This document shows positions 83-19,437 of a DNA stretch of 24,000 nucleotides, piece by piece; positions within the stretch are counted from its first letter, which is position 1, and each line of letters opens with the position of its first letter. The notes beneath the pieces are model-generated. The model did not search any database and was not told the origin of the DNA. It saw only the letters and a list, made by a program, of their open reading frames with translations. Location of the stretch: positions 96,400-120,399 of the forward strand of contig CALODI010000010.1 in NCBI GenBank assembly GCA_942492135.1, given 5' to 3'. Made by a program: the position numbers and the translations under genes. The DNA comes from an uncultured Peptostreptococcaceae bacterium (lineage in GTDB: Bacteria; Bacillota; Clostridia; Peptostreptococcales; Peptostreptococcaceae).

Positions 83-141
83 TCTACAAACATTTTTAAA
101 GACATCTTGGTAGGCAATTTTGATTAAAGTTAATATACTTT

Positions 142-266
142 ATCCGAAAGCTAAAAGTTCTAAAATTCGATCTGTAGGAAGAATGGAATTAAGAACTTAA
201 CAGCTTCTGGATTAGTGCAACTATAAATTCAGTTGGAATAAAAACTCCATCTGAATTAAGTTTTAC
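142..266 (+). promoter_or_regulatory. structured 5' leader with two hairpins, the second terminator-like (possible attenuator)
   Basis: Hairpin 1: atccgaaagctaaaagttct (142-161) pairs imperfectly with agaacttaacagcttctggat (192-212). Hairpin 2: aattcagttgga (226-237) pairs with tccatctgaatt (246-257) at 11 of 12 bp, followed by aagttttacttc. Confidence 0.3.
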
Positions 267-292
267 TTCATAAATATAGAGGGGTTGAAATT

Positions 293-3875: not shown

Positions 3876-5198
3876 ATGGCAAGCTTTAATGAGGCAAAAA
3901 CTTGTGATATTTTGGATAAAAGCAAGGTCGACAAAATGATGAAATACAGGTGGATTGTATGGGGAGTACTTGCGTTTGCATATATTATAGTATTTTTTCA
4001 TAGATTAGCACCTGGAGTTGTTAAGGATGATTTGATAAATGAATTTAATATTTCAGGAACTACATTTGCAAATTTAGGAGGTATGTATTTTTACGCTTAT
4101 ATGATAATGCAAATTCCAGCTGGAATGTTAGCAGATTCATTAGGTGCTAGAAAGACTGTATCTATAGGGGTTTTATTATCGGGAATAGGGTCTATTTTAT
4201 TTGGAATGGCTCCTACTATATTTTGGGCATTTGCAGGAAGGTTACTTGTTGGTGTAGGGGTATCTGTTGTATTCGTACCGATACTTAAGATACAGTCTGT
4301 TTGGTTTAAGGAAAGTGAATTTGGTATAATGTCTGGTATTACTTCTTTTGCAGGGAATTTAGGTGGAATAATAGCTCAAACTCCTCTTGCTCTACTTGTT
4401 GCAGCTATAACTTGGAGAAGTTCATTCGTTGTTATGGGTGTTTTTTCTATAATAATAAGTGTACTTTGTTATATGATAGTTAGAAATGATCCTAAAGATA
4501 TGGGATATCCATCTATAGCTGAGATAGAAGGTAAAGGTATAAAGCATGTTAATAAAACTAAGGTGAATATGAAAAAGGCAGTTATACAGGTTATGCTTAA
4601 TCCTGGAACTTGGCCGGGATTCTTTATATTTGCAGGATGTTTTGGTGCATTTGTTTCATTGACTGGAGCATGGGGAAATGGGTATATAACGGATGTATAT
4701 AATGTATCTAAGATACAAGCTTCTAATTATATGATACTTCCTGTTTTAGGACTAGCTATTGGAAGTATATTTATTGGAGTTATTTCTGATAAGATGAGAA
4801 AAAGAAAGACTCCTATGATGATGTTTGGAACTGTTTATTTACTGTGTTGGGCTACTATTGCTTTTGGAGGAAGACTTGATACTAATGTCTTAAAGGTTGT
4901 GTTGTTTACGTTAGGTTTTACTTGTTCTACATTTGTACTTGGATGGGCTTGTGCAAAAGAGGTAAACCAACCAGAAATAGCGGGTATATCAACGTCTATT
5001 GTTAATATAGGAGGGATTTTTGGAGCTGCTATTATGCCATCTATACTTGGAGGAATTTTTGATAAATATGGAGCTACTTTAGTTAGTGTTGACCTTTATG
5101 GTAAGGCATTTATGTATTGCTTTTTGAGTGCTCTTGTAGGGTATGTGTTTGTATTTTTGGTTAAGGAAACTAATTGTAGGAATATATATTCTAAGTGA
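3876..5198 (+). CDS. MFS transporter (12-TM type, anion/organic-acid permease-like)
   Basis: The track ORF begins at GTG 3813, inside the terminator hairpin. ATG 3876 (MASFNEAKT...) has RBS gagagggg at 3861-3868. The sequence is highly hydrophobic with a typical MFS loop motif (GMLADSLGARKT). Confidence 0.8.
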   Translation: MASFNEAKTCDILDKSKVDKMMKYRWIVWGVLAFAYIIVFFHRLAPGVVKDDLINEFNISGTTFANLGGMYFYAYMIMQIPAGMLADSLGARKTVSIGVLLSGIGSILFGMAPTIFWAFAGRLLVGVGVSVVFVPILKIQSVWFKESEFGIMSGITSFAGNLGGIIAQTPLALLVAAITWRSSFVVMGVFSIIISVLCYMIVRNDPKDMGYPSIAEIEGKGIKHVNKTKVNMKKAVIQVMLNPGTWPGFFIFAGCFGAFVSLTGAWGNGYITDVYNVSKIQASNYMILPVLGLAIGSIFIGVISDKMRKRKTPMMMFGTVYLLCWATIAFGGRLDTNVLKVVLFTLGFTCSTFVLGWACAKEVNQPEIAGISTSIVNIGGIFGAAIMPSILGGIFDKYGATLVSVDLYGKAFMYCFLSALVGYVFVFLVKETNCRNIYSK

Positions 5199-5231
5199 TT
5201 TTTTTAAGAAGATTATATGGTGGTTAAGCCC

Positions 5232-5432
5232 AAAATAAGGCTTATTAAAATACCGTGAATGTGTTAAATGTTTTTAATAAAACTAAGTATTACATCTTAT
5301 TGAATATCCTAAAAGTTCTAAACTCCCGTTGGTCAGACAACGAACTTTCTTAACGGATATTCAAAAGATGCAATACAAGTTTTATACAAAAATATTTAAA
5401 TCATTCACTAACATTTTAATAAGCCTTATTTT
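5232..5432 (+). repeat. long-hairpin repeat, copy A (about 200 bp imperfect palindrome followed by a T-run)
   Basis: The left arm aaaataaggcttattaaaataccgtgaatg... is complementary to the right arm ...cattcactaacattttaataagccttatttt over about 70 bp per arm. Apical region: cctaaaagttctaaactcccgttggtcagacaacgaactttcttaacgg. Homologous copies lie at 10688-10883 and 12244-12452. Confidence 0.8.
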
Positions 5433-5524
5433 TTTAGTTAGGTACTTAGATGTTTGTGAATACAGATTGAAATTTACCAACCTCAAATTTGAGAAAAATC
5501 TTTGAAAGTATTGAAAAACAGAGG

Positions 5525-5554
5525 TTTACAAAGGATGTTTTTTAGAGTTATAAT
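5525..5554 (+). promoter_or_regulatory. candidate sigma-A promoter driving the omega-RNA/iscB transcript
   Basis: TTTACA (5525-5530), 18-nt spacer, TATAAT (5549-5554). Confidence 0.45.
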
Positions 5555-5559
5555 TATAT

Positions 5560-5845
5560 GTGAAGAGGCATTCTACTCTCTTTAACTGTAACATGAGATG
5601 TATGTCAATAACCTACCGCTTACAACCTAAAGGTTGTTGAAGTGGGGGCTTGTAAAAGCTCTTATTGTCTAGACTAAGCCTTAATTGGCTACATTAGAAT
5701 AGTTATGATAACTTTGTATGATACCCTAGTACATTTTGTTATCAAGGCTCTGTAAACAGCTTTCATGGGAGGAAGCAGTCAACCTTATGTAAGAAGCTAT
5801 TCTAATATTGTCTAAGGGTAACTACTCTGAAAGGAGGAATACTTT
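5560..5845 (+). ncRNA. candidate omega-RNA (IscB guide/scaffold RNA); boundaries approximate
   Basis: A stretch of about 285 nt with no ORF immediately 5' of iscB, where IscB omega-RNAs are encoded. Nested helices are visible: attagaatag (5692-5701) with ctattctaat (5797-5806); gataac/gttatc hairpin (about 5705-5745); caacc-taaa-ggttg; gctt-gtaa-aagc; ctg-taaa-cag. Confidence 0.5.
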
Positions 5846-7165
5846 ATCTTAGTATTCGTAATCAATAAGAATGGCAATCCTTTAATGCCATGTAAACAAT
5901 CAAAAGCTAGAAAACTATTGAAGCAAAATAAAGCTAAAATAATAAATTATAAACCATTTACCATACAACTTTTATATGGTTGTAGTGGATACAAGCAACC
6001 TATAGAAATAGGAATAGATAGTGGATCTAAATATATAGGAATAGCTATTACAAGTGAAGATAAAGTATTGTCTAAAGGAATTATTCAGCTTAGAACTGAT
6101 GTAAAAGAACTTCTAATTACTCGTAGAATACTTAGGAGAAGTAGAAGGAATCGCAAAACTCGTTATAGAAGATGCAAATTCAAATATAAAACTACTAGAA
6201 AATATAATCCTAAAAAGAAAAAGTGGGTTAAGCATAAGTTTTCTTTTAAAAGTAATCGCATTGAAGAATGGTTACCACCTTCAATACAAAGTCGAATAGA
6301 TAATCAAATACTTTGGATTAATAAGTTTATAAAACTTGTACCTAATCCTAAAGTAATTATTGAGTTAGGCAAATTTGATGTCCAAAAGATAATTAATCCA
6401 AATATTACAGGTGAACAATATCAACAAGGAAAATCCTATGGATTCTACAATTTTAGATATTATGTGTTTGCTAGAGATAATTACAAATGTCAAATTTGTA
6501 AAGGTAAAAGTAAAGATGATATATTACAAACACATCATATAATTCAGCGAAAAGATGGAGGCTCTGATAGAGCTGAAAACTTGGCTACAGTATGTATGAC
6601 TTGCCATTCGGATTTTCATGCTGGCAAGATAAATTATAAATTTAAAAAACCTAAGCAGTATAAAGAAACTACTTTTATGAATATACTTAGAAGGAAAATA
6701 CTCAAAAGACTTGATTGTGATGTTACCTACGGTAATATTACAACATCAAATAGAAAAGCCTTAGAATTGGATAAAACACATTATAATGATGCAATTGCTA
6801 TTAGTGGAATTGTAAATATAAAAGATAATTCTAATGTTATCTTTTATATAAAACAGTTCAGAAAGAAAAAAAGATCTTTGCATGAATCTACTGCTCGAAA
6901 GGGTAGAAAAACAAAGAATACAATTTCTAAAAGAAATGAGAAAAATACTAAATTTTCAAAGGGGTTCTACCTTAATGATAAGGTAAAAGTCTTTAAAAAA
7001 GTAGGGTTTATAAGTGGCTTTTGTAAAGGTGGAGTTTATATAAAAGATATAGAAGGCAACTATATAACAATGTCTGGAAAGAATTATAAACAAGTAAGCT
7101 TTAAAAATATAGAAGTTATAAACCATAATAATAATTGGCAATTTATACAAAGTATAAGTGCATAG
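5846..7165 (+). CDS. iscB: IscB-type RNA-guided nuclease (PLMP, split RuvC with inserted HNH, C-terminal beta-rich domain)
   Basis: Motifs seen: (I)LVFVINKNGNPLMPC...PFTIQL (PLMP domain), GIDSGSKYIG (RuvC-I Asp), RRSRRNRKTRYRR (Arg-rich bridge helix), VIIELGKFD (RuvC-II Glu), CQIC...HHIIQRKDGGSDRAENLATVCMTCHSDFH (HNH) and HYNDAIAI (RuvC-III). The start is set at ATC 5846, 8 nt after AAGGAGG (5831-5837). The first ATG at 5885 would remove the conserved N-terminal strand and has no RBS. Confidence 0.85.
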   Translation: MLVFVINKNGNPLMPCKQSKARKLLKQNKAKIINYKPFTIQLLYGCSGYKQPIEIGIDSGSKYIGIAITSEDKVLSKGIIQLRTDVKELLITRRILRRSRRNRKTRYRRCKFKYKTTRKYNPKKKKWVKHKFSFKSNRIEEWLPPSIQSRIDNQILWINKFIKLVPNPKVIIELGKFDVQKIINPNITGEQYQQGKSYGFYNFRYYVFARDNYKCQICKGKSKDDILQTHHIIQRKDGGSDRAENLATVCMTCHSDFHAGKINYKFKKPKQYKETTFMNILRRKILKRLDCDVTYGNITTSNRKALELDKTHYNDAIAISGIVNIKDNSNVIFYIKQFRKKKRSLHESTARKGRKTKNTISKRNEKNTKFSKGFYLNDKVKVFKKVGFISGFCKGGVYIKDIEGNYITMSGKNYKQVSFKNIEVINHNNNWQFIQSISA

Positions 7166-7233
7166 AAATTCAGCCCACCACCTATTTTATTGAGGCTGGA
7201 GACGTAGTGATAATATAGGCTAACTATTAGAAG

Positions 7234-7259
7234 AAAAGGACTTTTTATAAGTCTTTTTT
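7234..7259 (+). terminator. weak terminator-like hairpin downstream of iscB
   Basis: gactt (7238-7242) pairs with aagtc (7248-7252), flanked by an A-run and a T-run (tctttttt). Confidence 0.3.
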
Positions 7260-7366
7260 GTGTGTGAGGTATTTTGCTGAGCCGATGGGTTGAAAGAAAA
7301 CTTCTCGCCTAAATAATGGGATAATAAGTTATAAGCAAGGACGTTTTTGATGACAAAAGTACCTAA

Positions 7367-7489
7367 AGTAAGCTGATGAAAGGTGTTGGAATGGAACGAG
7401 AGATTATGAGTAAAGGTATTATAATAGTACGTTATGCTGATGATAGTTCGTCACGAAGTAGGAGCCAATCAACTAGAATGGTTGTTTGA
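7367..7489 (+). pseudogene. fragment of a group II intron/retroelement reverse transcriptase (YADD motif region)
   Basis: A short frame reads ...EREIMSKGIIIVRYADDSS... with RYADD at 7430-7444. There is no start or full-length ORF, and the flanks are stop-rich. GTGTG at 7261 resembles a group II 5' end, but this is not compelling. Confidence 0.4.
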
Positions 7490-7834
7490 AGATAGCTATG
7501 CTATACAGATGATGCCTATGGAGGGTATACCACAAAACACAAATAAACCTAAAGAATTAAAGTGAGGTATTAAGGAACATGATAAATAAAAGAAATGTTA
7601 TAGATATAATTTCTAAAGAAACGCAAGGGAAAAGATATAAATCACATAGATATTGTCATGATGTGATAAGCTCTTCTGCAATAGAATATGAAGAAGAGTG
7701 AGAGGTTGTTTGGAAAAAATTGGTGAAACAACTAAACATCAAAAGCCAAGTGTGTTGATTATGAAAAATTTTCTATAAAGATTATCAGCACACAACTTCC
7801 TTATAAATTGAATTAATGATAATTTAGTATATTT

Positions 7835-8212
7835 CTATCGTTTAGATGTTTCTGCATGTGTGAAATACAAAATAATATATGCTATTAATGCAGAAAAAAG
7901 TTGATTATATACAGCGTTTTCACTTGTTCCAAAGAATCTTTTCGCATTTAGATTTTGTTTTATAAATCTAAAAAAAGTCTCCACTTTCCAACGTTCTTTA
8001 TAAATATTGGCAATAGTTTCTTCAACTTGTGATGGTATCGTTTGAGTTACATTTAAAGCTAGATGAAGTTTTATGCCTGATTTTTCCCTCTTAAATTTAG
8101 CCCATTTGATACGGTTTTTTCCTACTGTAACAGTAGTAGAATCAATAGCTAATAAATCTTTAGGAAGATTCAAAGCTCTTTTTGTTGCACGATTACATTT
8201 GTCTGAAAGCAT
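7835..8212 (-). pseudogene. IS4-family (DDE_Tnp_1) transposase remnant, N-terminally truncated and internally deleted
   Basis: The 125-aa ORF contains LAIDSTT (first DDE Asp region) joined almost directly to YKERWKVETFFRFIK, which matches the Y-2-R-3-E-6-K signature. The segment carrying the second Asp is missing. Confidence 0.6.
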
Positions 8213-8232
8213 ATGAAAAAGCTTTTTGGTAA

Positions 8233-8391
8233 TTTGATGATCTATTGAACAATGATGAAGGTTTTATATTTGGGAAAATAGGTGATAAGTACATCACAAA
8301 ATTACAAACAGAGGACGGTCATATATTAATTATTGGAGGAGCTGGAAGTGGTAAAAGTTCATGTATGGCAATTTTAACTCTCTTAAACTGA
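8233..8391 (+). pseudogene. N-terminal fragment of a VirD4/TraG-like type IV coupling protein (Walker A)
   Basis: The frame reads FDDLLNNDEGFIFGKIGDKYITKLQTEDGHILIIGGAGSGKSSCMAILTLLN then stops. This pattern (GxxxGK, about 15 aa, H-hydrophobic run, G-GSGKS) is typical of conjugative coupling ATPases. Only about 52 codons remain. Confidence 0.45.
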
Positions 8392-8512
8392 ACAAGTCCT
8401 GTATTTGTACCAGAAAATGTTGTATTATTGATATAAGTAAAAGAAAATATATTAAGCAAGTATATTATATGTATTAGGAAAAACAAAAGAGAGATCTTAG
8501 AAAGGAAAAATT

Positions 8513-10591
8513 ATGATTCAAAATATATGTGATAAAAGAAAGTCTTTAATCCTTGTAGTAGATGATTCTAAATTAATTCGATTTACATTTAGGAATTTTT
8601 TAGAGAATGAAGGTTATGAGGTTATTGAGGCTGAAGATGGCATCGCGGCTCTTTCTCTATTTGCAAAACTAAAGCCCGATATCGTTCTAATGGATTATGT
8701 AATGCCAGAGGTAGATGGTGTTACTGCCTGTACTCAATTACAGGAATTACCTAATGGGAAGTCTACTCCTGTAATTATGGTTACCTCTCTTGAAGATGAA
8801 AACTCTGTAAACCTTGCTTTTGAGGCTGGTGCTACTGATTATATTAGTAAGCCAATCAACTGGGCTGTTTTACGCCAACGTCTAAGACGTTTAATACGTG
8901 CAAGACATACAGAGATAATACTTGATCAAAGTGAATCATTTGCGCGTTCTATAATCAACCATGCAATCGAGGGAATTATTACTATCGATATTAATGGAAT
9001 AGTCAGATATATTAATCCTGCAGCTGAACAAATTTTTGGCTATATGCCTAGTGAGATAATAGGAGAAAACATTAATATGATTATTCCAGAACTTTCTTAT
9101 AGAGATTACGATAATTTTGATATTAATGATAAATTTATACATATGACCAAGGAAATAATTGGCCAGCGAAAGGATACCTCCACATTATCTATTGACCTTA
9201 CAGTAAGTAAGTTTTATGTAGAGGAAAAATATTTTTTTACTATTATCCTTCGTGATATTACGGAACAAAAACGTTATGAGGAAATGATCAGGCATCAAGC
9301 TTTTTACGATTCTTTAACCAATCTACCTAATCGACTTTTATTAAAAGAACGTATTGAGCTTGAAATTTCTCGTGCTAAACATACTGGCCAGAAGGTGGCA
9401 GTAATGTTTCTTGATTTAGATAGATTTAAGCTTATTAATGATACCCTTGGACACGATATCGGAGATAAAGTACTGAAAGAAATCGCCAAGAGACTAAAAA
9501 GTTGTGTACGTGAAGACGATATCACTTCTCGGATAGGAGGTGACGAATTTGTAATTTTACTACCTGGAATAACTCATGAAGAAAACGTAGGTAGAATTGC
9601 TAATAAAATCCTTAATACTATCAAGCAACCGTTAATAATTGACAATCACGAACTGTATCTCACTATTAGCATTGGAATTACTATTTGTCCCAATGATGGT
9701 GAAGATGATGAAGTGTTACTGACAAATGCTGACATTGCTATGTATCGGGCTAAAGAAAAGGGTAAAAATAATTTCCAGCTATATACACCATCTTTGAATG
9801 CCAAAGCTCTTGAACGATTAGAACTGGAAAATAGTTTGCGCCGCGCTCTAGAATATAAAGAATTTGTAGTTTATTACCAGCCCAAAGTAAACACTAAAAC
9901 TGAGAAAGTAACTGGAATGGAAGCCTTGATACGCTGGCAACATCCCCAATGGGGGTTAGTTCCTCCACAAAAATTTATTCCTTTAGCTGAAGAAACTGGG
10001 TTGATTGTACCTATTGGCGAATGGGTATTACATACTGCTTGTGCCCAAAATAAAGCCTTACAAAACGCTGGATTCCCTCCTTTGACTGTGGCCGTTAATC
10101 TTTCGGTAAGGCAATTTGAGTTACAAGACTTAACAAAAATGGTCTTAAAGACATTGAAAGAAACTGGGCTAGAACCACAATACTTAGAATTAGAAATTAC
10201 AGAAAGTATAGCTATGCAGAATGTAAAACATACACTGGATACGATTAGTAAATTAAAAGCGATGGGAGTTAAGTTTTCCATAGATGATTTCGGTACTGGA
10301 TATTCTTCTTTAAGTCAATTAAGTAGTTTTTCTGTAAATAAATTGAAAATTGACAAGTCTTTTATAAGTAAGATTACTGAAGAAAAAGGTAATTCAATAA
10401 TTGCTTCAACAGTCTTAGCTTTAGGAAAAAGCCTTGAACTAGGGGTAGTTGCTGAAGGCGTTGAAAATGAAGAACAGGCTGATTTCTGTAAGGAAAATAA
10501 TTGTGACGAAATGCAGGGTTATTTTTTTGGTAAACCTATGTCTAACGAAAATTTTGAGAAGTTTTATTGTCAAAAACTCCAAGAAAGTTAA
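8513..10591 (+). CDS. response-regulator receiver-PAS-GGDEF-EAL protein (c-di-GMP turnover)
   Basis: 692 aa. REC domain (LVVDDS...DIVLMDYVMPEVDG...KP), PAS domain (IINHAIEGIITIDINGIVRYINPAAEQIFGY), GGDEF domain (RIGGDEFVILL, with RxxD-like context), and EAL domain (EALIRW, ELEITES, DDFGTGYSS, KIDKSF, EGVE, QGY). Confidence 0.9.
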   Translation: MIQNICDKRKSLILVVDDSKLIRFTFRNFLENEGYEVIEAEDGIAALSLFAKLKPDIVLMDYVMPEVDGVTACTQLQELPNGKSTPVIMVTSLEDENSVNLAFEAGATDYISKPINWAVLRQRLRRLIRARHTEIILDQSESFARSIINHAIEGIITIDINGIVRYINPAAEQIFGYMPSEIIGENINMIIPELSYRDYDNFDINDKFIHMTKEIIGQRKDTSTLSIDLTVSKFYVEEKYFFTIILRDITEQKRYEEMIRHQAFYDSLTNLPNRLLLKERIELEISRAKHTGQKVAVMFLDLDRFKLINDTLGHDIGDKVLKEIAKRLKSCVREDDITSRIGGDEFVILLPGITHEENVGRIANKILNTIKQPLIIDNHELYLTISIGITICPNDGEDDEVLLTNADIAMYRAKEKGKNNFQLYTPSLNAKALERLELENSLRRALEYKEFVVYYQPKVNTKTEKVTGMEALIRWQHPQWGLVPPQKFIPLAEETGLIVPIGEWVLHTACAQNKALQNAGFPPLTVAVNLSVRQFELQDLTKMVLKTLKETGLEPQYLELEITESIAMQNVKHTLDTISKLKAMGVKFSIDDFGTGYSSLSQLSSFSVNKLKIDKSFISKITEEKGNSIIASTVLALGKSLELGVVAEGVENEEQADFCKENNCDEMQGYFFGKPMSNENFEKFYCQKLQES

Positions 10592-10687
10592 TTACCTAGA
10601 TTTCGTACAAATGTAATTATTTATTCACTATAAAATACCAATTGATTAAATCTCTAATTTGAAAAAACTATAGGTCTTAATCCCAAA

Positions 10688-10883
10688 ACAAATGACATTA
10701 AAATACCGCTAATGTGGTAAATATTTTTAATAAAACTAAGAATTACATCTTATTGAATCTCCTAAAAGTTCTGAACTCCCTCGAGGTCAAACAACGAACT
10801 TTCTTAACGGATATTCAAACGCTGTAATTCAAGTTTTATACAAAAATATTTAAAGCATTCGCTAACATTTTGATGCCATTTGT
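10688..10883 (+). repeat. long-hairpin repeat, copy B (inside the IS1380-like element)
   Basis: Near-colinear with copy A (...attaaaataccgctaatgtgg...tcctaaaagttctgaactccctcgaggtcaaacaacgaactttcttaacggatattcaaa...cattcgctaacattttgatg...), followed by tttgttttttt. Confidence 0.8.
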
Positions 10884-11018
10884 TTTTTTAGCATGTTTCT
10901 TAGATATGAAATGGATTTAAATATATGTTATTTTCAAAAAAGACAAAAAGAAACAAAGGCAATTAATTCATTACCATCATTTGTAATAAACGTTCTGTTT
11001 TATTTCTTATCTAAATTA

Positions 11019-12110
11019 TCATAAATTAAAACTTAATTGCTCATATGAAGGATTACACATTGCGTTAGCAATGAGGTTTGCAAGTTTAGTTATGGTTGGA
11101 ATATCTACAATTATTTCATTTAAAGTACGCTTTACAAATCCTTTTACATTTCCTACTTTTTTTACTAAATCTCCGATACCTACATTTTTTAATGGTGTAT
11201 CTTTTAATAGTGTTTCTTTAAATAAAACAATAAGATTATGAGTTATAAAAACGATCCACAAAAAAGCATAAATCCCATGAAACTTAGTAGTCCTAAGGTT
11301 TCTAATATGATAAACAATTTTAGCCATTTTAAAAAAAGCTTCTATAGTTTTTGCAATGTTTTTTGCTGTTTTAGAAGAATATCCTTTTATAACGAATTTT
11401 AATTTTGATACAGAAGATACCATATCTATTATTTCCTCAGTTCCATATCCGCTATCCGCACGTATAATTAGCTTACTTATTTTTAATTGTTCACTATATT
11501 TTTCTAATGAAGAATTTAAAAGGTCTCTGAATCTATGTGAGCAATGAACATTTCCAGAATCAAGATACATTCCAACTGTCTCGGCATTTTTTCCTGCAAA
11601 TGCTGCTGATAATTGATATCCAGATTGATTCTTTTTCTTTGAAAAGTATCCTTTTGTGCTACCTTCATAAGATTTACCATTTGCAATCAAACCAGATTGA
11701 TCAAAGTCTACGACTATCTGCTCTTGAGAATTAGCCGAAGAACTATGTTCTTTGAAAAGTTCGCTATGAATATCTTCAAGTTGAGATATATTTGTAGAAT
11801 CCATTCGCCTTAAAAGAATATTAATTTGAGATTGATCCGGGAAACTATCCATGTTAAATAAATTTGCTGATAGTTTTTCAGTTCCGAGCTTTTCGTTTAT
11901 ATCTTTCATAAATTCACAGCCCATTACAATTGACATTATTATCGTCATCATCTTTTGATAAACAGAATATTTAACTTTTTTCATTTTTAATTCAAAGTAC
12001 TTAAAAGGCTTGAAAAAGTCAATTTTTAAGCCAAATTTCATTACAGCAATCAACCAAGTGGAAGTAGTCTCCTCTTTACAATTATTCTGTTTAAATGTTA
12101 TTCTTTTCAT
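11019..12110 (-). CDS. IS1380-family DDE transposase, internally shortened (likely non-functional)
   Basis: The start is moved to ATG 12110 (MKRITFKQ), with GGTGG 8 nt upstream. VVDFDQSG...STKGYFSKKKNQSGYQLSAAFAG...LDSGNVHCSHRF...IRADSGYG...KFVIKGYSS parallels the ISEcp1 D, KGYNPKK, RSGN, RMDSGY and YLIKAK blocks (from memory). Roughly 85-95 residues seem missing before the TIEAFFKMAK (E-containing) block. Confidence 0.65.
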   Translation of the reverse strand: MKRITFKQNNCKEETTSTWLIAVMKFGLKIDFFKPFKYFELKMKKVKYSVYQKMMTIIMSIVMGCEFMKDINEKLGTEKLSANLFNMDSFPDQSQINILLRRMDSTNISQLEDIHSELFKEHSSSANSQEQIVVDFDQSGLIANGKSYEGSTKGYFSKKKNQSGYQLSAAFAGKNAETVGMYLDSGNVHCSHRFRDLLNSSLEKYSEQLKISKLIIRADSGYGTEEIIDMVSSVSKLKFVIKGYSSKTAKNIAKTIEAFFKMAKIVYHIRNLRTTKFHGIYAFLWIVFITHNLIVLFKETLLKDTPLKNVGIGDLVKKVGNVKGFVKRTLNEIIVDIPTITKLANLIANAMCNPSYEQLSFNL

Positions 12111-12243
12111 AAATAATACCACCTTTCTTATTCTAGATTTGTTTTTCAAGGCGAATTCTTTTATAATAATATGGTATTATTTTTTTGTCTTTTATTCTAT
12201 GGTAAAAATAGGGGATGAAGTTTTAATTTATAATAGAGTTGCT

Positions 12244-12452
12244 AATATTAAAACTGTCTATACAAATGTTAGTGAATGCTTTTAGATATTTTGACTAATA
12301 TAACTTAGGTTTTATCGTTTAATATTCCGTTAAAAAATTTGAGTGTTTGACCGTAGGGAGTTCTCAAATTTTAGGACTATTAATAAGATAGAATCTTAGT
12401 TATATTCAAAATATCGTTGTATTCACGGTATTTTTATAGATAGTTTTTAATA
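12244..12452 (-). repeat. long-hairpin repeat, copy C (inverted relative to A and B; inside the IS1380-like element)
   Basis: The reverse complement reads ...ataaaaataccgtgaatacaacg...tcctaaaatttgagaactccctacggtcaaacactcaaattttttaacgg...cattcactaacattt.... It is more diverged, but arm complementarity is kept. Confidence 0.7.
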
Positions 12453-12550
12453 ACCCAAAGACCCTAAAAAAATAACCCAGATTTCGTTTGTACGAAATCT
12501 AGGTAATTAAGATATTTATAATAATATTTTTATCTAACCTCAAGAATTTT

Positions 12551-18059: not shown

Positions 18060-19337
18060 ATGCTAGAGAACAGAGTAAGTGAAAAGGAAGCAAAACACCT
18101 AGGTTATATGGTAGTGCTTGCATCTTGGCTTGCAGTATTTTGTTTATTTGGTTATAGAGCTACTTTTTCTGTACTTCAAGGACCTATGGCAAAGGATCTG
18201 GGATGGAGTGCATCTAAATTAACTCTAGGTTATTCACTTATGATGAGCGTTTATGCAGTAACTGCATTCTTTAGTGGAATGATAATAGATAAATGGGGAA
18301 CTAAGCCTGCTTATTTTTTAGGTGCTTTAAGTGGTTCCTTAGGATTTCTGGTAACAAGCTTTGCCAAAACATATATGTCTTATTTGATTCCATATGCTGT
18401 ATTTGCAGGGATTGGAACTGGTATGCTTTGGGTATCGTCAACTGTATCGGTTAGAAAATGGTATGTAGGTAAGTCATATGCAACTATGTGGGGTATAGCT
18501 TTTATGGGAGCTCCTGTTGCACAGGTTGTACTAAGTCTTGGAGCTAAACAGGTTCTTGCAACTATGGACTGGAGATTTGCTATGAGAATATTATCTCTTG
18601 TAGTATTAATCGCTTTAATAATAGCTACTTGTGTTGCTAAGAAAAATCCTCAATACTATGGGCTTAAGCCTTTTGGTATGGACACAGTAAAAACTAAGAA
18701 AAATAATGTGAATGATAGAGAATGGAGTATAAAACAGGCATTTTCTACATTCCCTATATGGGGTGCTATAATAGCATTCTTGACTAGTATGGTTGCAGAG
18801 TTTTTAGTTTGGACTCAAATTGTAAAGTATTGGATGGCGGATTGTGATTTATCTTTATCTACAGCTACCAATCTTTATGTAGCAATAGGAATAGCTGGAA
18901 TACTTACAATGCCTTTAATGGGAGTTGTAGCAGATAAGATGGTTACAAAGTTAAACCATGAAACAAAGGGTAGAAAATATATGCTAATATTCGCGCCTTT
19001 AATGGGAGTTATAGCTTGTATTGCTTTGATGACAGGAAAAGGTGCAGTAACTCTTAGTATAGTATCTTGTATAATATTTGCTGTATACTGGGCTATCGAA
19101 CCTGGTGGAGTTGCAGGATATGCAGCATCTGTTTATGGAAATAAGACTTTCGGTAAGATATGGGGACTATCAACTCTTGTAGTTATGGGTATAGGACCAG
19201 CACTTGGAAGTTTTATGGGAGCTTATTTATATGACGTATCTGGAAGTTATTATAATTCACTAAAGTTTGCCATGGCATCATTCGCAGTATCTGCTATAGT
19301 GGCGATGCTTCTTCCATTATCTATAGATAAGGATTAA
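18060..19337 (+). CDS. MFS transporter embedded in the hpd operon (oxalate/formate-antiporter-like in general appearance)
   Basis: 425 aa, about 12 TM helices, with RBS ggaagga 10 nt upstream. It sits between hpdC and hpdA. Confidence 0.8.
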   Translation: MLENRVSEKEAKHLGYMVVLASWLAVFCLFGYRATFSVLQGPMAKDLGWSASKLTLGYSLMMSVYAVTAFFSGMIIDKWGTKPAYFLGALSGSLGFLVTSFAKTYMSYLIPYAVFAGIGTGMLWVSSTVSVRKWYVGKSYATMWGIAFMGAPVAQVVLSLGAKQVLATMDWRFAMRILSLVVLIALIIATCVAKKNPQYYGLKPFGMDTVKTKKNNVNDREWSIKQAFSTFPIWGAIIAFLTSMVAEFLVWTQIVKYWMADCDLSLSTATNLYVAIGIAGILTMPLMGVVADKMVTKLNHETKGRKYMLIFAPLMGVIACIALMTGKGAVTLSIVSCIIFAVYWAIEPGGVAGYAASVYGNKTFGKIWGLSTLVVMGIGPALGSFMGAYLYDVSGSYYNSLKFAMASFAVSAIVAMLLPLSIDKD

Positions 19338-19361
19338 AGTTAAACTAATTCAGAAACTATT

Positions 19362-19403
19362 AAGTTCTTATCTCCAGCCTTAAGAGGAAGGAGATAAGAA
19401 CTT
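19362..19403 (+). promoter_or_regulatory. 14-bp perfect hairpin between the MFS gene and hpdA (partial terminator, processing or stability element)
   Basis: aagttcttatctcc (19362-19375) pairs with ggagataagaactt (19390-19403) around a 14-nt loop. The tail ttagctttctg is only a weak U-tract. Confidence 0.5.
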
Positions 19404-19437
19404 TTAGCTTTCTGATAAATGAAATGAGGGATTTGAA

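What the first reader, a model, noticed from the sequence alone, without database searches (positions are those of the whole stretch)
5232..5432. Family of roughly 200-bp long-hairpin repeats with covarying stems and a conserved apical loop
Three full copies (A 5232-5432, B 10688-10883, C 12244-12452 inverted) each fold into a hairpin with imperfect arms of about 70 bp. A and B are close in sequence. C is diverged, but its inner stem changed on both sides (A aaagttc/gaacttt versus C aaaatttgag/ctcaaatttt). The apical loop keeps AACTCCC...GGTCA(A/G)AC(A). Compensatory change with a conserved loop points to selection on structure, either as a structured RNA or as a DNA hairpin bound by a protein, rather than neutral repeat decay. 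Copies A and B sit directly after stop codons (MFS gene at 5198, GGDEF-EAL gene at 10591) and end in T-runs, so they may also act as large terminators. I cannot assign them to any named repeat family. They could be MITE-like elements, transposase or recombinase substrates, or an undescribed ncRNA.
Basis: seen in the sequence. Interest (0 to 1): 0.65.

Follow-up and report, generated by a model that had tools for sequence, protein, structure and literature searches.

The report
Strand-specific long-hairpin repeat, conserved across phyla
The three 200-base hairpins are real copies of a dispersed repeat in Tepidibacter, and their tip carries a sequence-and-structure motif found at the tip of similar long hairpins in many bacterial phyla and absent from Rfam, so this is a local expansion of a widespread and apparently uncatalogued element.

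Summary
Observation confirmed. A (5224-5451), B (10677-10905) and C (12228-12457, inverted) are copies of one repeat, and each folds into one roughly 200-nt hairpin (z -5 to -12). About 34 more copies lie in three other Tepidibacter genomes, all intergenic. Compensatory change is massive.

Corrections:
It is more stable in 27/27 copies, with 167 versus 25 G·U pairs.
- B and C are passengers inside an IS1380-type insertion sequence (10595-12503) that landed on the GGDEF-EAL stop codon. B is therefore not that gene's terminator.
- The "conserved apical loop" is not genus-specific. TGTYTGACC-GNA-GGGAGTT, plus an internal loop CGTTAAG/TTTAG, caps 150-300-nt hairpins in Clostridia, Lachnospiraceae, Halanaerobiales, Bacteroidota, Campylobacterota and Nitrospirota. 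It shows strong covariation and the same strand bias (99/103).

Orientation relative to genes is random. No promoter and no partner gene was found.

Best reading: a non-autonomous, REPIN/MITE-like palindromic element that is used as one single strand (ssDNA or RNA) by an unidentified trans-acting factor. It incidentally acts as a terminator-like insulator and as an IS110 landing pad. The mechanism is inferred, not shown.

The parts
5224..5451 (-). Copy A, the whole repeat unit. The hairpin is 5232-5432, and the favoured strand is minus. It lies 34 nt after the MFS stop codon and about 150 nt before the IscB omega-RNA.
   Evidence: Orthologous copy in another Tepidibacter sp. (L119 7336-7550).
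5302..5362 (-). Conserved core of copy A. On the minus strand it reads CCGTTAAG-AAAGTTC-gt-TGTCTGACC-AAC-GGGAGTT-ta-GAACTTT-TAGG. The cap is at 5321-5339. The internal-loop strands are at 5349-5355 and 5309-5314.
   Evidence: Covariance model R1 hit, 74.2 bits. Cross-phylum alignments A6 and A7.
10677..10905 (-). Copy B (hairpin 10688-10883, core 10755-10816). It is inserted in the non-coding end of the IS, downstream of the transposase gene.
   Evidence: An internally deleted version sits in the same IS in L076.
12228..12457 (+). Copy C, a diverged subfamily (hairpin 12244-12452, core 12321-12381). It is inserted in the non-coding end of the IS, upstream of the transposase gene.
   Evidence: The same subfamily also occurs solo in L001 and L037.
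10595..12503 (-). IS1380-family insertion sequence, the carrier of B and C and not their parent. Inverted repeats are CCTAGATTTCGTACAAA. Target duplication is TAATTA (10589-10594 and 12504-12509). The transposase ORF (11019-12149) is degenerate. The IS inserted on the GGDEF-EAL stop codon.
   Evidence: (I4).

Best explanation
The hairpins are members of a non-autonomous, REPIN/MITE-like family of palindromic intergenic elements. The family has expanded in Tepidibacter and belongs to a much wider class, not in Rfam, found in many bacterial phyla.

Anatomy: the unit is one 150-300-nt hairpin with freely covarying arms. Two small modules are kept on one particular strand (called F here; minus for A and B, plus for C):
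- An apical cap, TGTYTGACC-GNA-GGGAGTT. It has two C-G pairs closing a 3-nt loop, next to tandem G·A/A·G.
- An asymmetric internal loop, CC-GTTAAG-AAA / TTT-TA-GG.

Inferred mechanism: the element is read, and copied or homogenised, as a single strand of fixed polarity. That strand is either ssDNA or RNA, and a trans-acting factor encoded elsewhere binds the cap and loop. The long stem only has to stay paired on that strand. That is why G·U(T) is tolerated there and its mirror image A·C is not.

Inferred by-products: once resident, a copy is a strong bidirectional hairpin with T-runs. It is therefore terminator-like and acts as an insulator. It also serves as a safe landing site for other mobile DNA such as IS110.

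Shown: the family, the structure, the strand bias, the cross-phylum modules, insertion into an IS, and random orientation.

Inferred: the single-strand intermediate, the trans factor, and mobility as the reason for copy number.
For: Family and structure:
- About 37 copies in 4 Tepidibacter genomes, none overlapping an ORF of 100 aa or more.
- RNAalifold on the F strand gives 61 pairs, 36 with double-sided changes. Energy is -53.7 versus -28.0 on the other strand.

Strand bias:
- F is more stable in 27/27 Tepidibacter copies, with G·U 167 versus 25 and A·C 1x1 mismatches 8 versus 44.
- F is more stable in 99/103 hairpins from other taxa, with median ddG -11.6 kcal/mol.

Cross-phylum modules:
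- Covariance model R1 gives 93 hits in genome loci.
- It gives one marginal hit in 39 viral loci that carry the same loop string.
- 93.5% of cells are paired versus 57.5% when shuffled. Covariation is 0.764 versus 0.163, and 0.17 or less when slid.
- 87 of 125 metagenome matches have flanking stems.
- The module order is flipped in Cytophagales and Thermodesulfovibrionia, but the strand is kept.

Mobility or turnover:
- B and C are clean insertions of about 220 bp into an IS whose relatives are 1637 bp without hairpins.
- Tandem duplication in L073 compared with L102.
- Internal deletion derivative in L076.
- Absent after the orthologous MFS gene of T. formicigenes.
- Orthologous copies A and L119 are mosaics of subfamilies.

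Not host-gene linked:
- Neighbours are unrelated housekeeping genes.
- F orientation relative to flanking genes is random.
- No sigma-70-like promoter was found.

IS110 transposases abut the hairpin at 3 of 148 loci. IS110s are known to do this with REPs (PMC12288879).
Against: - No target-site duplication and no clean empty site were found, so mobility of the hairpin itself is inferred only from its insertion into the IS and its patchy presence.
- No candidate partner gene recurs next to 166 elements at 148 loci.
- Copy A is retained at the same site in two species whose flanks differ by about 11%. That is also what a host-useful element would look like.
- ssDNA versus RNA is unresolved. With DNA energy parameters the two strands of A fold equally well (-52.9 and -52.5). 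The roughly 20:1 excess of G·U over A·C is more typical of RNA-level selection.
- The F-strand cap is a DNA-like GNA triloop, whereas its complement would be the classic RNA cUNCGg tetraloop.
- Only a weak orientation bias relative to GC skew (58 versus 36, p=0.03).
Confidence: 0.45

Rival explanations
1. A family of structured non-coding RNA genes transcribed from the F strand. The long hairpin is the RNA, and the cap and GUUAAG loop are protein- or RNA-binding sites. Multi-copy spread is secondary.
For: - The G·U-rich strand is constant, and a G·U to A·C ratio of about 20:1 is RNA-like.
- Conserved G·U pairs sit at fixed positions.
- In Campylobacterota and Bacteroidota the F-strand hairpin is followed by a U-run and a second small hairpin. 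The unit there is about 330 nt with further conserved stems.
- Halanaerobium and Frackibacter keep one copy at a syntenic locus.
Against: - No promoter-like site lies upstream on the F strand in the window, and only about 20-45 nt of weak conservation lies beyond the stem.
- F is antisense to both neighbours in about 40% of cases, including the orthologously conserved copy A.
- In Halanaerobium the only promoter-like site points into the other strand.
- The F cap is not a standard stable RNA loop.
- No Rfam family matches, even at E of 10 or less.
Confidence: 0.25
2. Host-beneficial bidirectional intrinsic terminators or mRNA-stabilising hairpins, as REP and ERIC are thought to be. They would be kept because they insulate neighbouring transcription units.
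For: - Always intergenic.
- T-runs on both sides of the stem.
- A sits 34 nt after a stop codon, and it is conserved in a second species where T. formicigenes has an ordinary terminator.
- Several copies lie between co-directional genes.
Against: - Termination needs pairing on the transcribed strand, yet the favoured strand is the same in all copies whatever the direction of the neighbours.
- A 19-nt cap conserved across phyla is not needed for termination.
- B and C are inside an IS.
- The terminator scan does not call them. That scan counts only short stems.
Confidence: 0.15
3. An ordinary double-stranded MITE whose two arms are terminal inverted repeats bound by a DDE transposase. The compensatory changes would come from palindrome correction or gene conversion, not from selection on a folded strand.
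For: - The whole element is an inverted repeat.
- Subfamily mosaics suggest gene conversion.
- In Lachnospiraceae the unit is about 860 nt with 22-nt terminal inverted repeats.
Against: - Template-switch correction or dsDNA recognition is strand-symmetric. It cannot give G·T versus A·C asymmetry in 27/27 and 99/103 elements.
- The ends of the element do not resemble the inverted repeats of the only adjacent IS.
- No TSD was seen.
- No transposase recurs nearby.
Confidence: 0.1

Closest known systems
REPINs and REP sequences mobilised by RAYT (TnpA-REP, HUH Y1) transposases
   Same: - Intergenic, multi-copy and non-autonomous.
- The unit is one long imperfect hairpin whose pairing is maintained.
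- Thought to act as ssDNA of one strand.
- The partner gene is single-copy and elsewhere in the genome.
- Targets of IS110-family elements.
- Secondary roles as terminators or stabilisers.
   Different: - No GTAG/GTGG foot 5' of the stem.
- AT-rich stems of 70-110 bp instead of GC-rich 10-20 bp REPs.
- Conserved apical cap and internal loop instead of a conserved foot.
- No RAYT found nearby.
- Shared across phyla rather than species-specific.
Transcribed hairpin repeats such as ERIC/IRU, Correia/NEMIS and the Bacillus cereus bcr repeats (from my own knowledge of that literature)
   Same: - Hairpin-forming repeats of 100-200 bp in intergenic DNA.
- Compensatory changes, with G·U used to infer the folded strand.
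- Both orientations occur.
- Effects on termination and mRNA stability.
   Different: - Those families are confined to a genus or family.
- They have TIRs with a TA or TTTAT target duplication, or a parent IS.
- None has a cap motif shared between Firmicutes, Bacteroidota and Campylobacterota.
Single-strand DNA hairpin sites: integron attC, IS200/IS605 end hairpins, and plasmid single-strand origins (ssoA)
   Same: - Structure is conserved more than sequence.
- Only one strand is functional.
- Small conserved motifs within a variable hairpin.
- GNA-type DNA loops are plausible.
   Different: - The attC R''/R' inverse core sites are absent.
- No integrase, TnpA or Rep gene is adjacent.
- There is only a weak replication-strand bias, unlike the strong one known for IS200/IS605.
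- The elements are dispersed on chromosomes rather than sitting in cassette arrays or plasmids.

Membership tests
REP / REPIN (RAYT-associated) | GTAG or GTGG tetranucleotide 0-2 nt 5' of a GC-rich stem (PMC6006769) | tested here: not met
   The base of the stem is AAAAAT/ATTTTT. Flanks are GGTTAAGCG and T.TAGT..TTAG. There is no conserved GTAG 5' of the stem on the favoured strand.
REP / REPIN (RAYT-associated) | A Y1 HUH transposase gene flanked by copies | tested here: inconclusive
   No recurrent neighbour protein at 148 loci. Whole genomes could not be scanned.
MITE derived from an IS | Terminal inverted repeats matching a parent IS, and target-site duplications | tested here: not met
   The inverted repeats of the IS1380-type element (CCTAGATTTCGTACAAA) do not occur at the hairpin ends. 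Relatives of that IS lack the hairpin. No TSD is seen in 30 aligned flanks.
Any Rfam 15 RNA family (6S, SRP, HEARO, riboswitches and others) | Covariance-model match at or near the gathering score | tested here: not met
   No hit on the copies in the window, in 18 Tepidibacter loci or in 27 loci of other phyla. Short-stretch searches at E of 10 or less give only spurious miRNA-precursor or snoRNA hits.
Intrinsic (Rho-independent) terminator | Stable stem-loop followed by a T-run on the transcribed strand, downstream of a gene in the same orientation | tested here: inconclusive
   The stem and T-runs are present on both strands. Orientation relative to genes is random. The consensus scan does not call them, but it counts only short stems. 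No transcript data.
Integron attC site | Inverse core RYYYAAC at the 5' end and core GTTRRRY at the 3' end pairing at the stem base, next to an intI/cassette array | tested here: not met
   GTTAAG-like motifs lie in direct orientation outside the stem, and in the internal loop. There is no cassette array or integrase.
IS200/IS605 ends or PATE | Separate small subterminal hairpins at the left and right ends, and strong orientation bias relative to replication | tested here: not met
   The element is a single giant hairpin. The GC-skew bias is only weak (58 versus 36). The IscB element beside A is an independent insertion that is absent in L119.
Retron msr-msd | An adjacent reverse transcriptase gene | tested here: not met
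   No RT lies next to any of the copies examined. The only RT trace in the window is a fragment at about 7400-7450, 2 kb from A.

The most novel reading that the evidence does not exclude
The cap (TGTYTGACC-GNA-GGGAGTT) and the GTTAAG/TA internal loop define a previously undescribed, pan-bacterial class of strand-specific hairpin element. The class would be either a new kind of selfish element that spreads through a single-stranded intermediate using an unknown conserved enzyme, or a new widespread structured RNA. The Tepidibacter repeats would be its first recognised large expansion.
Probability: 0.35. Interest if true: 0.8.

Novelty: new variant of a known kind. Interest (0 to 1): 0.62.

Why it matters
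Dispersed palindromic repeats (REP, REPIN, ERIC, MITEs) are normally lineage-specific. Except for REP/RAYT, they lack a known mechanism.

Here the same two small modules sit on the same strand of otherwise unrelated 150-300-nt hairpins in Firmicutes, Bacteroidota, Campylobacterota and Nitrospirota. That implies a conserved reader, either a protein or an RNA machine, that nobody has tied to such elements.

The motif is short and specific enough to support three lines of work:
- Census all genomes.
- Find the partner by phylogenetic profiling.
- Test directly whether bacteria maintain long ssDNA or RNA hairpins for a purpose.

For annotation, the results also show that these copies are not parts of the neighbouring IS or of the IscB element.

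Tried and rejected
1. Rfam at gathering and at permissive thresholds, on the window, Tepidibacter loci and other phyla: nothing.
2. Parent IS. The IS1380-type element around B and C was suspected, but its relatives lack hairpins. Rejected.
3. IscB/HEARO link. The IscB element is an insertion absent from L119, while copy A is present there. Rejected.
4. IS110 bridge-RNA idea for the Helicobacteraceae unit. L093 has the unit without the transposase, and in L060 the IS interrupts it. IS110 is a guest, not the owner.
5. Small conserved ORF in the element. ATG-led 21-codon frames exist in only a few copies (reading). Rejected.
6. Hypervariable basal stem as target-derived sequence. It is shared by closely related copies, so it is inherited. 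Rejected.
7. Clean empty site. L043 versus L066 diverge beyond the gene, and T. formicigenes is too diverged. Inconclusive.
8. Plasmid BLAST of A and of a Lachnospiraceae hairpin: no match.
9. Literature searches by sequence string and by description: no description found.
10. Neighbour-gene clustering for a partner: none.
11. Viral contigs. The 39 pattern hits have no flanking stems, with one marginal model hit, and so serve as a chance control.

Full report
1. THE OBSERVATION

The three stretches are as described. A MAFFT alignment of A, B and the reverse complement of C gives 80% mean column identity. A and B match at 84-87% over 225 nt.

Each copy folds into one long hairpin:

| Copy | RNA MFE (kcal/mol) | z-score |
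|---|---|---|
| A | -73.9 | -11.9 |
| B | -58.4 | -8.7 |
| C | -49.1 | -5.3 |

Dinucleotide shuffles average -26 to -28 kcal/mol, and no shuffle does as well.

Rfam finds only a HEARO RNA at 5604-5825. This is the omega-RNA of the IscB gene at 5885-7165.

2. A REAL FAMILY, IN TEPIDIBACTER

A scan of one genome per species with the loop pattern returned many hits. blastn and nhmmer show full-length copies only in three Tepidibacter genomes: sp. Z1-5, T. mesophilus JCM 16806 and MAG McLGI.53. There are about 34 copies in 18 eight-kb blocks.

- None overlaps an ORF of 100 aa or more.
- Neighbours are ordinary genes such as murC, mazG, permeases and proteases.
- Copies occur in both orientations, as tandem pairs (L073, L089) and as inverted pairs (L001, L037).

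The window's own MFS protein has an 88%-identical orthologue in another Tepidibacter metagenome bin. The flanks align at 88.7% over 5.3 kb, and a copy sits at the same place there (L119 7336-7550). T. formicigenes (74% identity) has an ordinary terminator there instead.

3. COVARIATION, AND WHICH STRAND

On 25 full copies RNAalifold predicts 51 pairs, of which 30 show double-sided changes. It finds almost no G-U but many A·C or C·A cells. That pattern means the wobble pairs are on the other strand.

Folding each copy on both strands confirms this:

| Measure | F strand | Other strand |
|---|---|---|
| Copies in which it is the more stable | 27 of 27 (by 5-28 kcal/mol) | 0 |
| G·U pairs | 167 | 25 |
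| A·C single mismatches | 8 | 44 |

It is minus for A and B and plus for C.

On the F-strand alignment the consensus has 61 pairs. Of these, 36 have compensatory changes, and several G·U pairs are conserved. Energy is -53.7 versus -28.0 kcal/mol.

A strand-symmetric process cannot give this asymmetry. Such processes include dsDNA recognition of two arms and palindrome correction.

The orthologous pair A/L119 differs by block-wise, two-sided replacement of the mid-stem with another subfamily's sequence. This gives 11 compensated pairs while the apex is unchanged. Copies therefore exchange sequence, or evolve, under a pairing constraint.

4. B AND C RIDE IN AN INSERTION SEQUENCE

The ORF between B and C (11019-12149, minus strand) is a DDE_Tnp_1_4 transposase. 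Inverted repeats CCTAGATTTCGTACAAA lie outside B and C (pair I4). The same unit recurs, with deletions, in L076 and L031.

The element is 10595-12503 with a TAATTA duplication. It landed on the stop codon of the GGDEF-EAL gene.

Full-length relatives in Clostridium pasteurianum and a Clostridium sp. have these features:
- Transposase identity of 51-66%.
- The same terminal repeats.
- A length of 1637 bp, with 140-nt and 205-nt non-coding ends and no hairpin.

The window's element has 356-nt and 424-nt ends. B and C are therefore two separate insertions of about 220 bp into the IS, later carried along with it.

This is the best evidence here that the hairpin has been mobile.

5. THE APICAL LOOP IS NOT GENUS-SPECIFIC

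Most of the supposed chance hits of the pattern scan turned out to be real.

- Of 121 matches in genomes, about 85 have a covarying stem of 6 bp or more directly flanking the loop. They sit at the tip of 150-300-nt hairpins.
- Thirty-nine matches in viral contigs have no such stems and serve as the chance background.

On the F strand the shared parts are:
- The cap TGTYTGACC-NNN-GGGAGTT. The three-base loop is GNA in 61 matches and AAA or AAC in 16.
- An internal loop, CC-GTTAAG-AAA opposite TTT-TA-GG.

A 62-position covariance model was built from 22 sequences of Tepidibacter, Clostridium, Campylobacterota and Bacteroidota.

- It finds 93 hits in the genome loci and the window.
- It finds a single 27.7-bit hit in the viral controls.

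On the 79-sequence alignment the pair counts are as follows:

| Measure | Observed | Shuffled | Slid partners |
|---|---|---|---|
| Cells paired | 93.5% | 57.5% | not stated |
| Covariation score | 0.764 | 0.163 | 0.17 or less |

This alignment is fitted to the model, so it leans towards the structure.

Taxa include Clostridium, Lachnospiraceae, Halanaerobiales, many Bacteroidota, Arcobacter and Helicobacteraceae, and Thermodesulfovibrionia. There are single hits in a deltaproteobacterial and a Saccharibacteria bin.

In Cytophagales and Thermodesulfovibrionia the internal-loop module is turned round relative to the cap, but it stays on the same strand.

Of 125 matches, 87 have flanking stems.

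The strand bias holds outside Tepidibacter. F is more stable in 99 of 103 hairpins, with median -11.6 kcal/mol and G·U 508 versus 203. About one G·U per element comes from the cap itself.

6. WHAT IT IS NOT

- Rfam 15 has no family for it at any threshold tried.
- Neighbours are unrelated genes.
- Clustering all ORFs within 2 kb of 166 elements at 148 loci gives no recurrent family. The exceptions are syntenic orthologues in close relatives and IS110-type transposases at three loci.
- In L060 the IS110 interrupts the unit just after its T-run, whereas the near-identical L093 is intact. The hairpin is therefore a target, as REPs are for ISPpu9 (PMC12288879).
- The REP hallmark, a GTAG foot (PMC6006769), is absent, and so are attC core sites.
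- There is no adjacent RT, integrase or Y1 transposase.
- Sequence-string and descriptive literature searches found nothing. That is not proof the element is undescribed.

7. HOW IT MOST LIKELY WORKS

Orientation of F relative to flanking genes is random:

| Set | Upstream gene, co-oriented / anti-oriented | Downstream gene, co-oriented / anti-oriented |
|---|---|---|
| Outside Tepidibacter | 22 / 25 | 23 / 27 |
| Within Tepidibacter | 10 / 9 | 8 / 13 |

No sigma-70-type promoter precedes the copies in the window. Conservation fades 20-45 nt beyond the stem.

A constraint that is tied to the element's own polarity, and not to its genomic context, is what one expects if the constraint acts while the element is being copied or homogenised as a single strand. 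I therefore favour a REPIN-like, non-autonomous element. In this reading a trans-acting factor reads its cap and internal loop.

Resident copies would still behave as large bidirectional hairpins with T-runs.

I cannot decide whether the single strand is DNA or RNA.
- For DNA: the F cap is a C-GNA-G triloop with tandem G·A, a classic stable DNA mini-hairpin. Its complement would be the classic RNA cUNCGg loop.
- For RNA: the roughly 20:1 preference for G·U over A·C. With DNA parameters both strands of A fold equally well (-52.9 and -52.5). With RNA parameters the values are -81.2 and -73.9.
- In Campylobacterota and Bacteroidota the F hairpin is followed by a U-run and a second small hairpin, inside a unit of about 330 nt. 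That looks RNA-like.
- A weak bias of F toward the C-rich strand (58 versus 36, p=0.03) is far from the bias known for IS200/IS605.

8. VERDICT

The finding is real and better than ordinary, but the interpretation needed three corrections: the strand, the IS context of B and C, and the phylogenetic range.

In kind it is an interspersed palindromic repeat, which is a known category.

The cross-phylum, strand-specific cap and loop are, as far as these tools show, uncatalogued.

Noticed in passing
window 5568-~7525 (omega-RNA 5604-5825, IscB 5885-7165): An IscB gene (RRXRR + HNH) with its HEARO omega-RNA and a TTTACA-18-TATAAT promoter (5525-5554). Relative to the orthologous locus L119, the block from 5568 to about 7525 that carries it is an insertion. 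It replaces about 170 bp there.
   Followed up: partly
window ~7400-7460: A fragment encoding ...GIIIVRYADD..., the YADD motif of a group II intron-type reverse transcriptase. It has no intact ORF. The region 7165-8500 looks like a graveyard of mobile-element debris.
   Followed up: no
window 7835-8212 (-): A 125-aa remnant of a DDE_Tnp_1 (IS4-like) transposase, unrelated to the IS that carries B and C.
   Followed up: no
L027 ~5400-5480 and L108 ~1500-1570; also L123 7400-7470 and L027 140-230: A second small repeat, ATTCGCTTA.GCTCATGGCGCCAACGAATTCTAATGAATTCCGTTGCTTAA. It is inserted at the same position inside two hairpin copies. It also occurs, with a terminator-like AAAAAGTCT...AGACTTTTTT module, after the MFS gene of T. 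formicigenes and abutting a truncated copy in L027.
   Followed up: no
window 134-271 and 19334-19419; L043 4548-4700; L065 1526-1594: Another repeated, partly palindromic sequence (AAGAATGGA.TAAGAACTTAACAGCTTCTGGATTAG...). It occurs upstream of the aminotransferase gene and after the gene ending at 19337. No Rfam match.
   Followed up: no
L114 7685-7768 (-) with hairpin copy at 7411-7632 and gene 6937-7389 (-): A c-di-GMP-II riboswitch aptamer is separated from its downstream gene by a full hairpin copy. The copy sits inside a riboswitch-controlled leader.
   Followed up: no
L113 2302-3158 and L051 6564-7272 (Lachnospiraceae MAG): Here the repeated unit is about 860 nt with 22-nt terminal inverted repeats and three long hairpins. 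The first has the CGTTAA/TTTAG internal loop but a different cap, on the opposite strand to the third.
   Followed up: partly
L041, L057, L068 (three Bacteroidota families): The element lies near a dinB/umuC-type (IMS family) polymerase gene in three different Bacteroidota. In two of them it is about 400 nt downstream. This may be chance or conserved synteny.
   Followed up: no
L073 5944-7404 and L102 3993-5453: An AAA_15/AAA_23 ATPase gene plus a 218-aa gene of no known family is bracketed by hairpin copies in direct orientation in two Tepidibacter genomes. It may be a defence-type gene pair.
   Followed up: no
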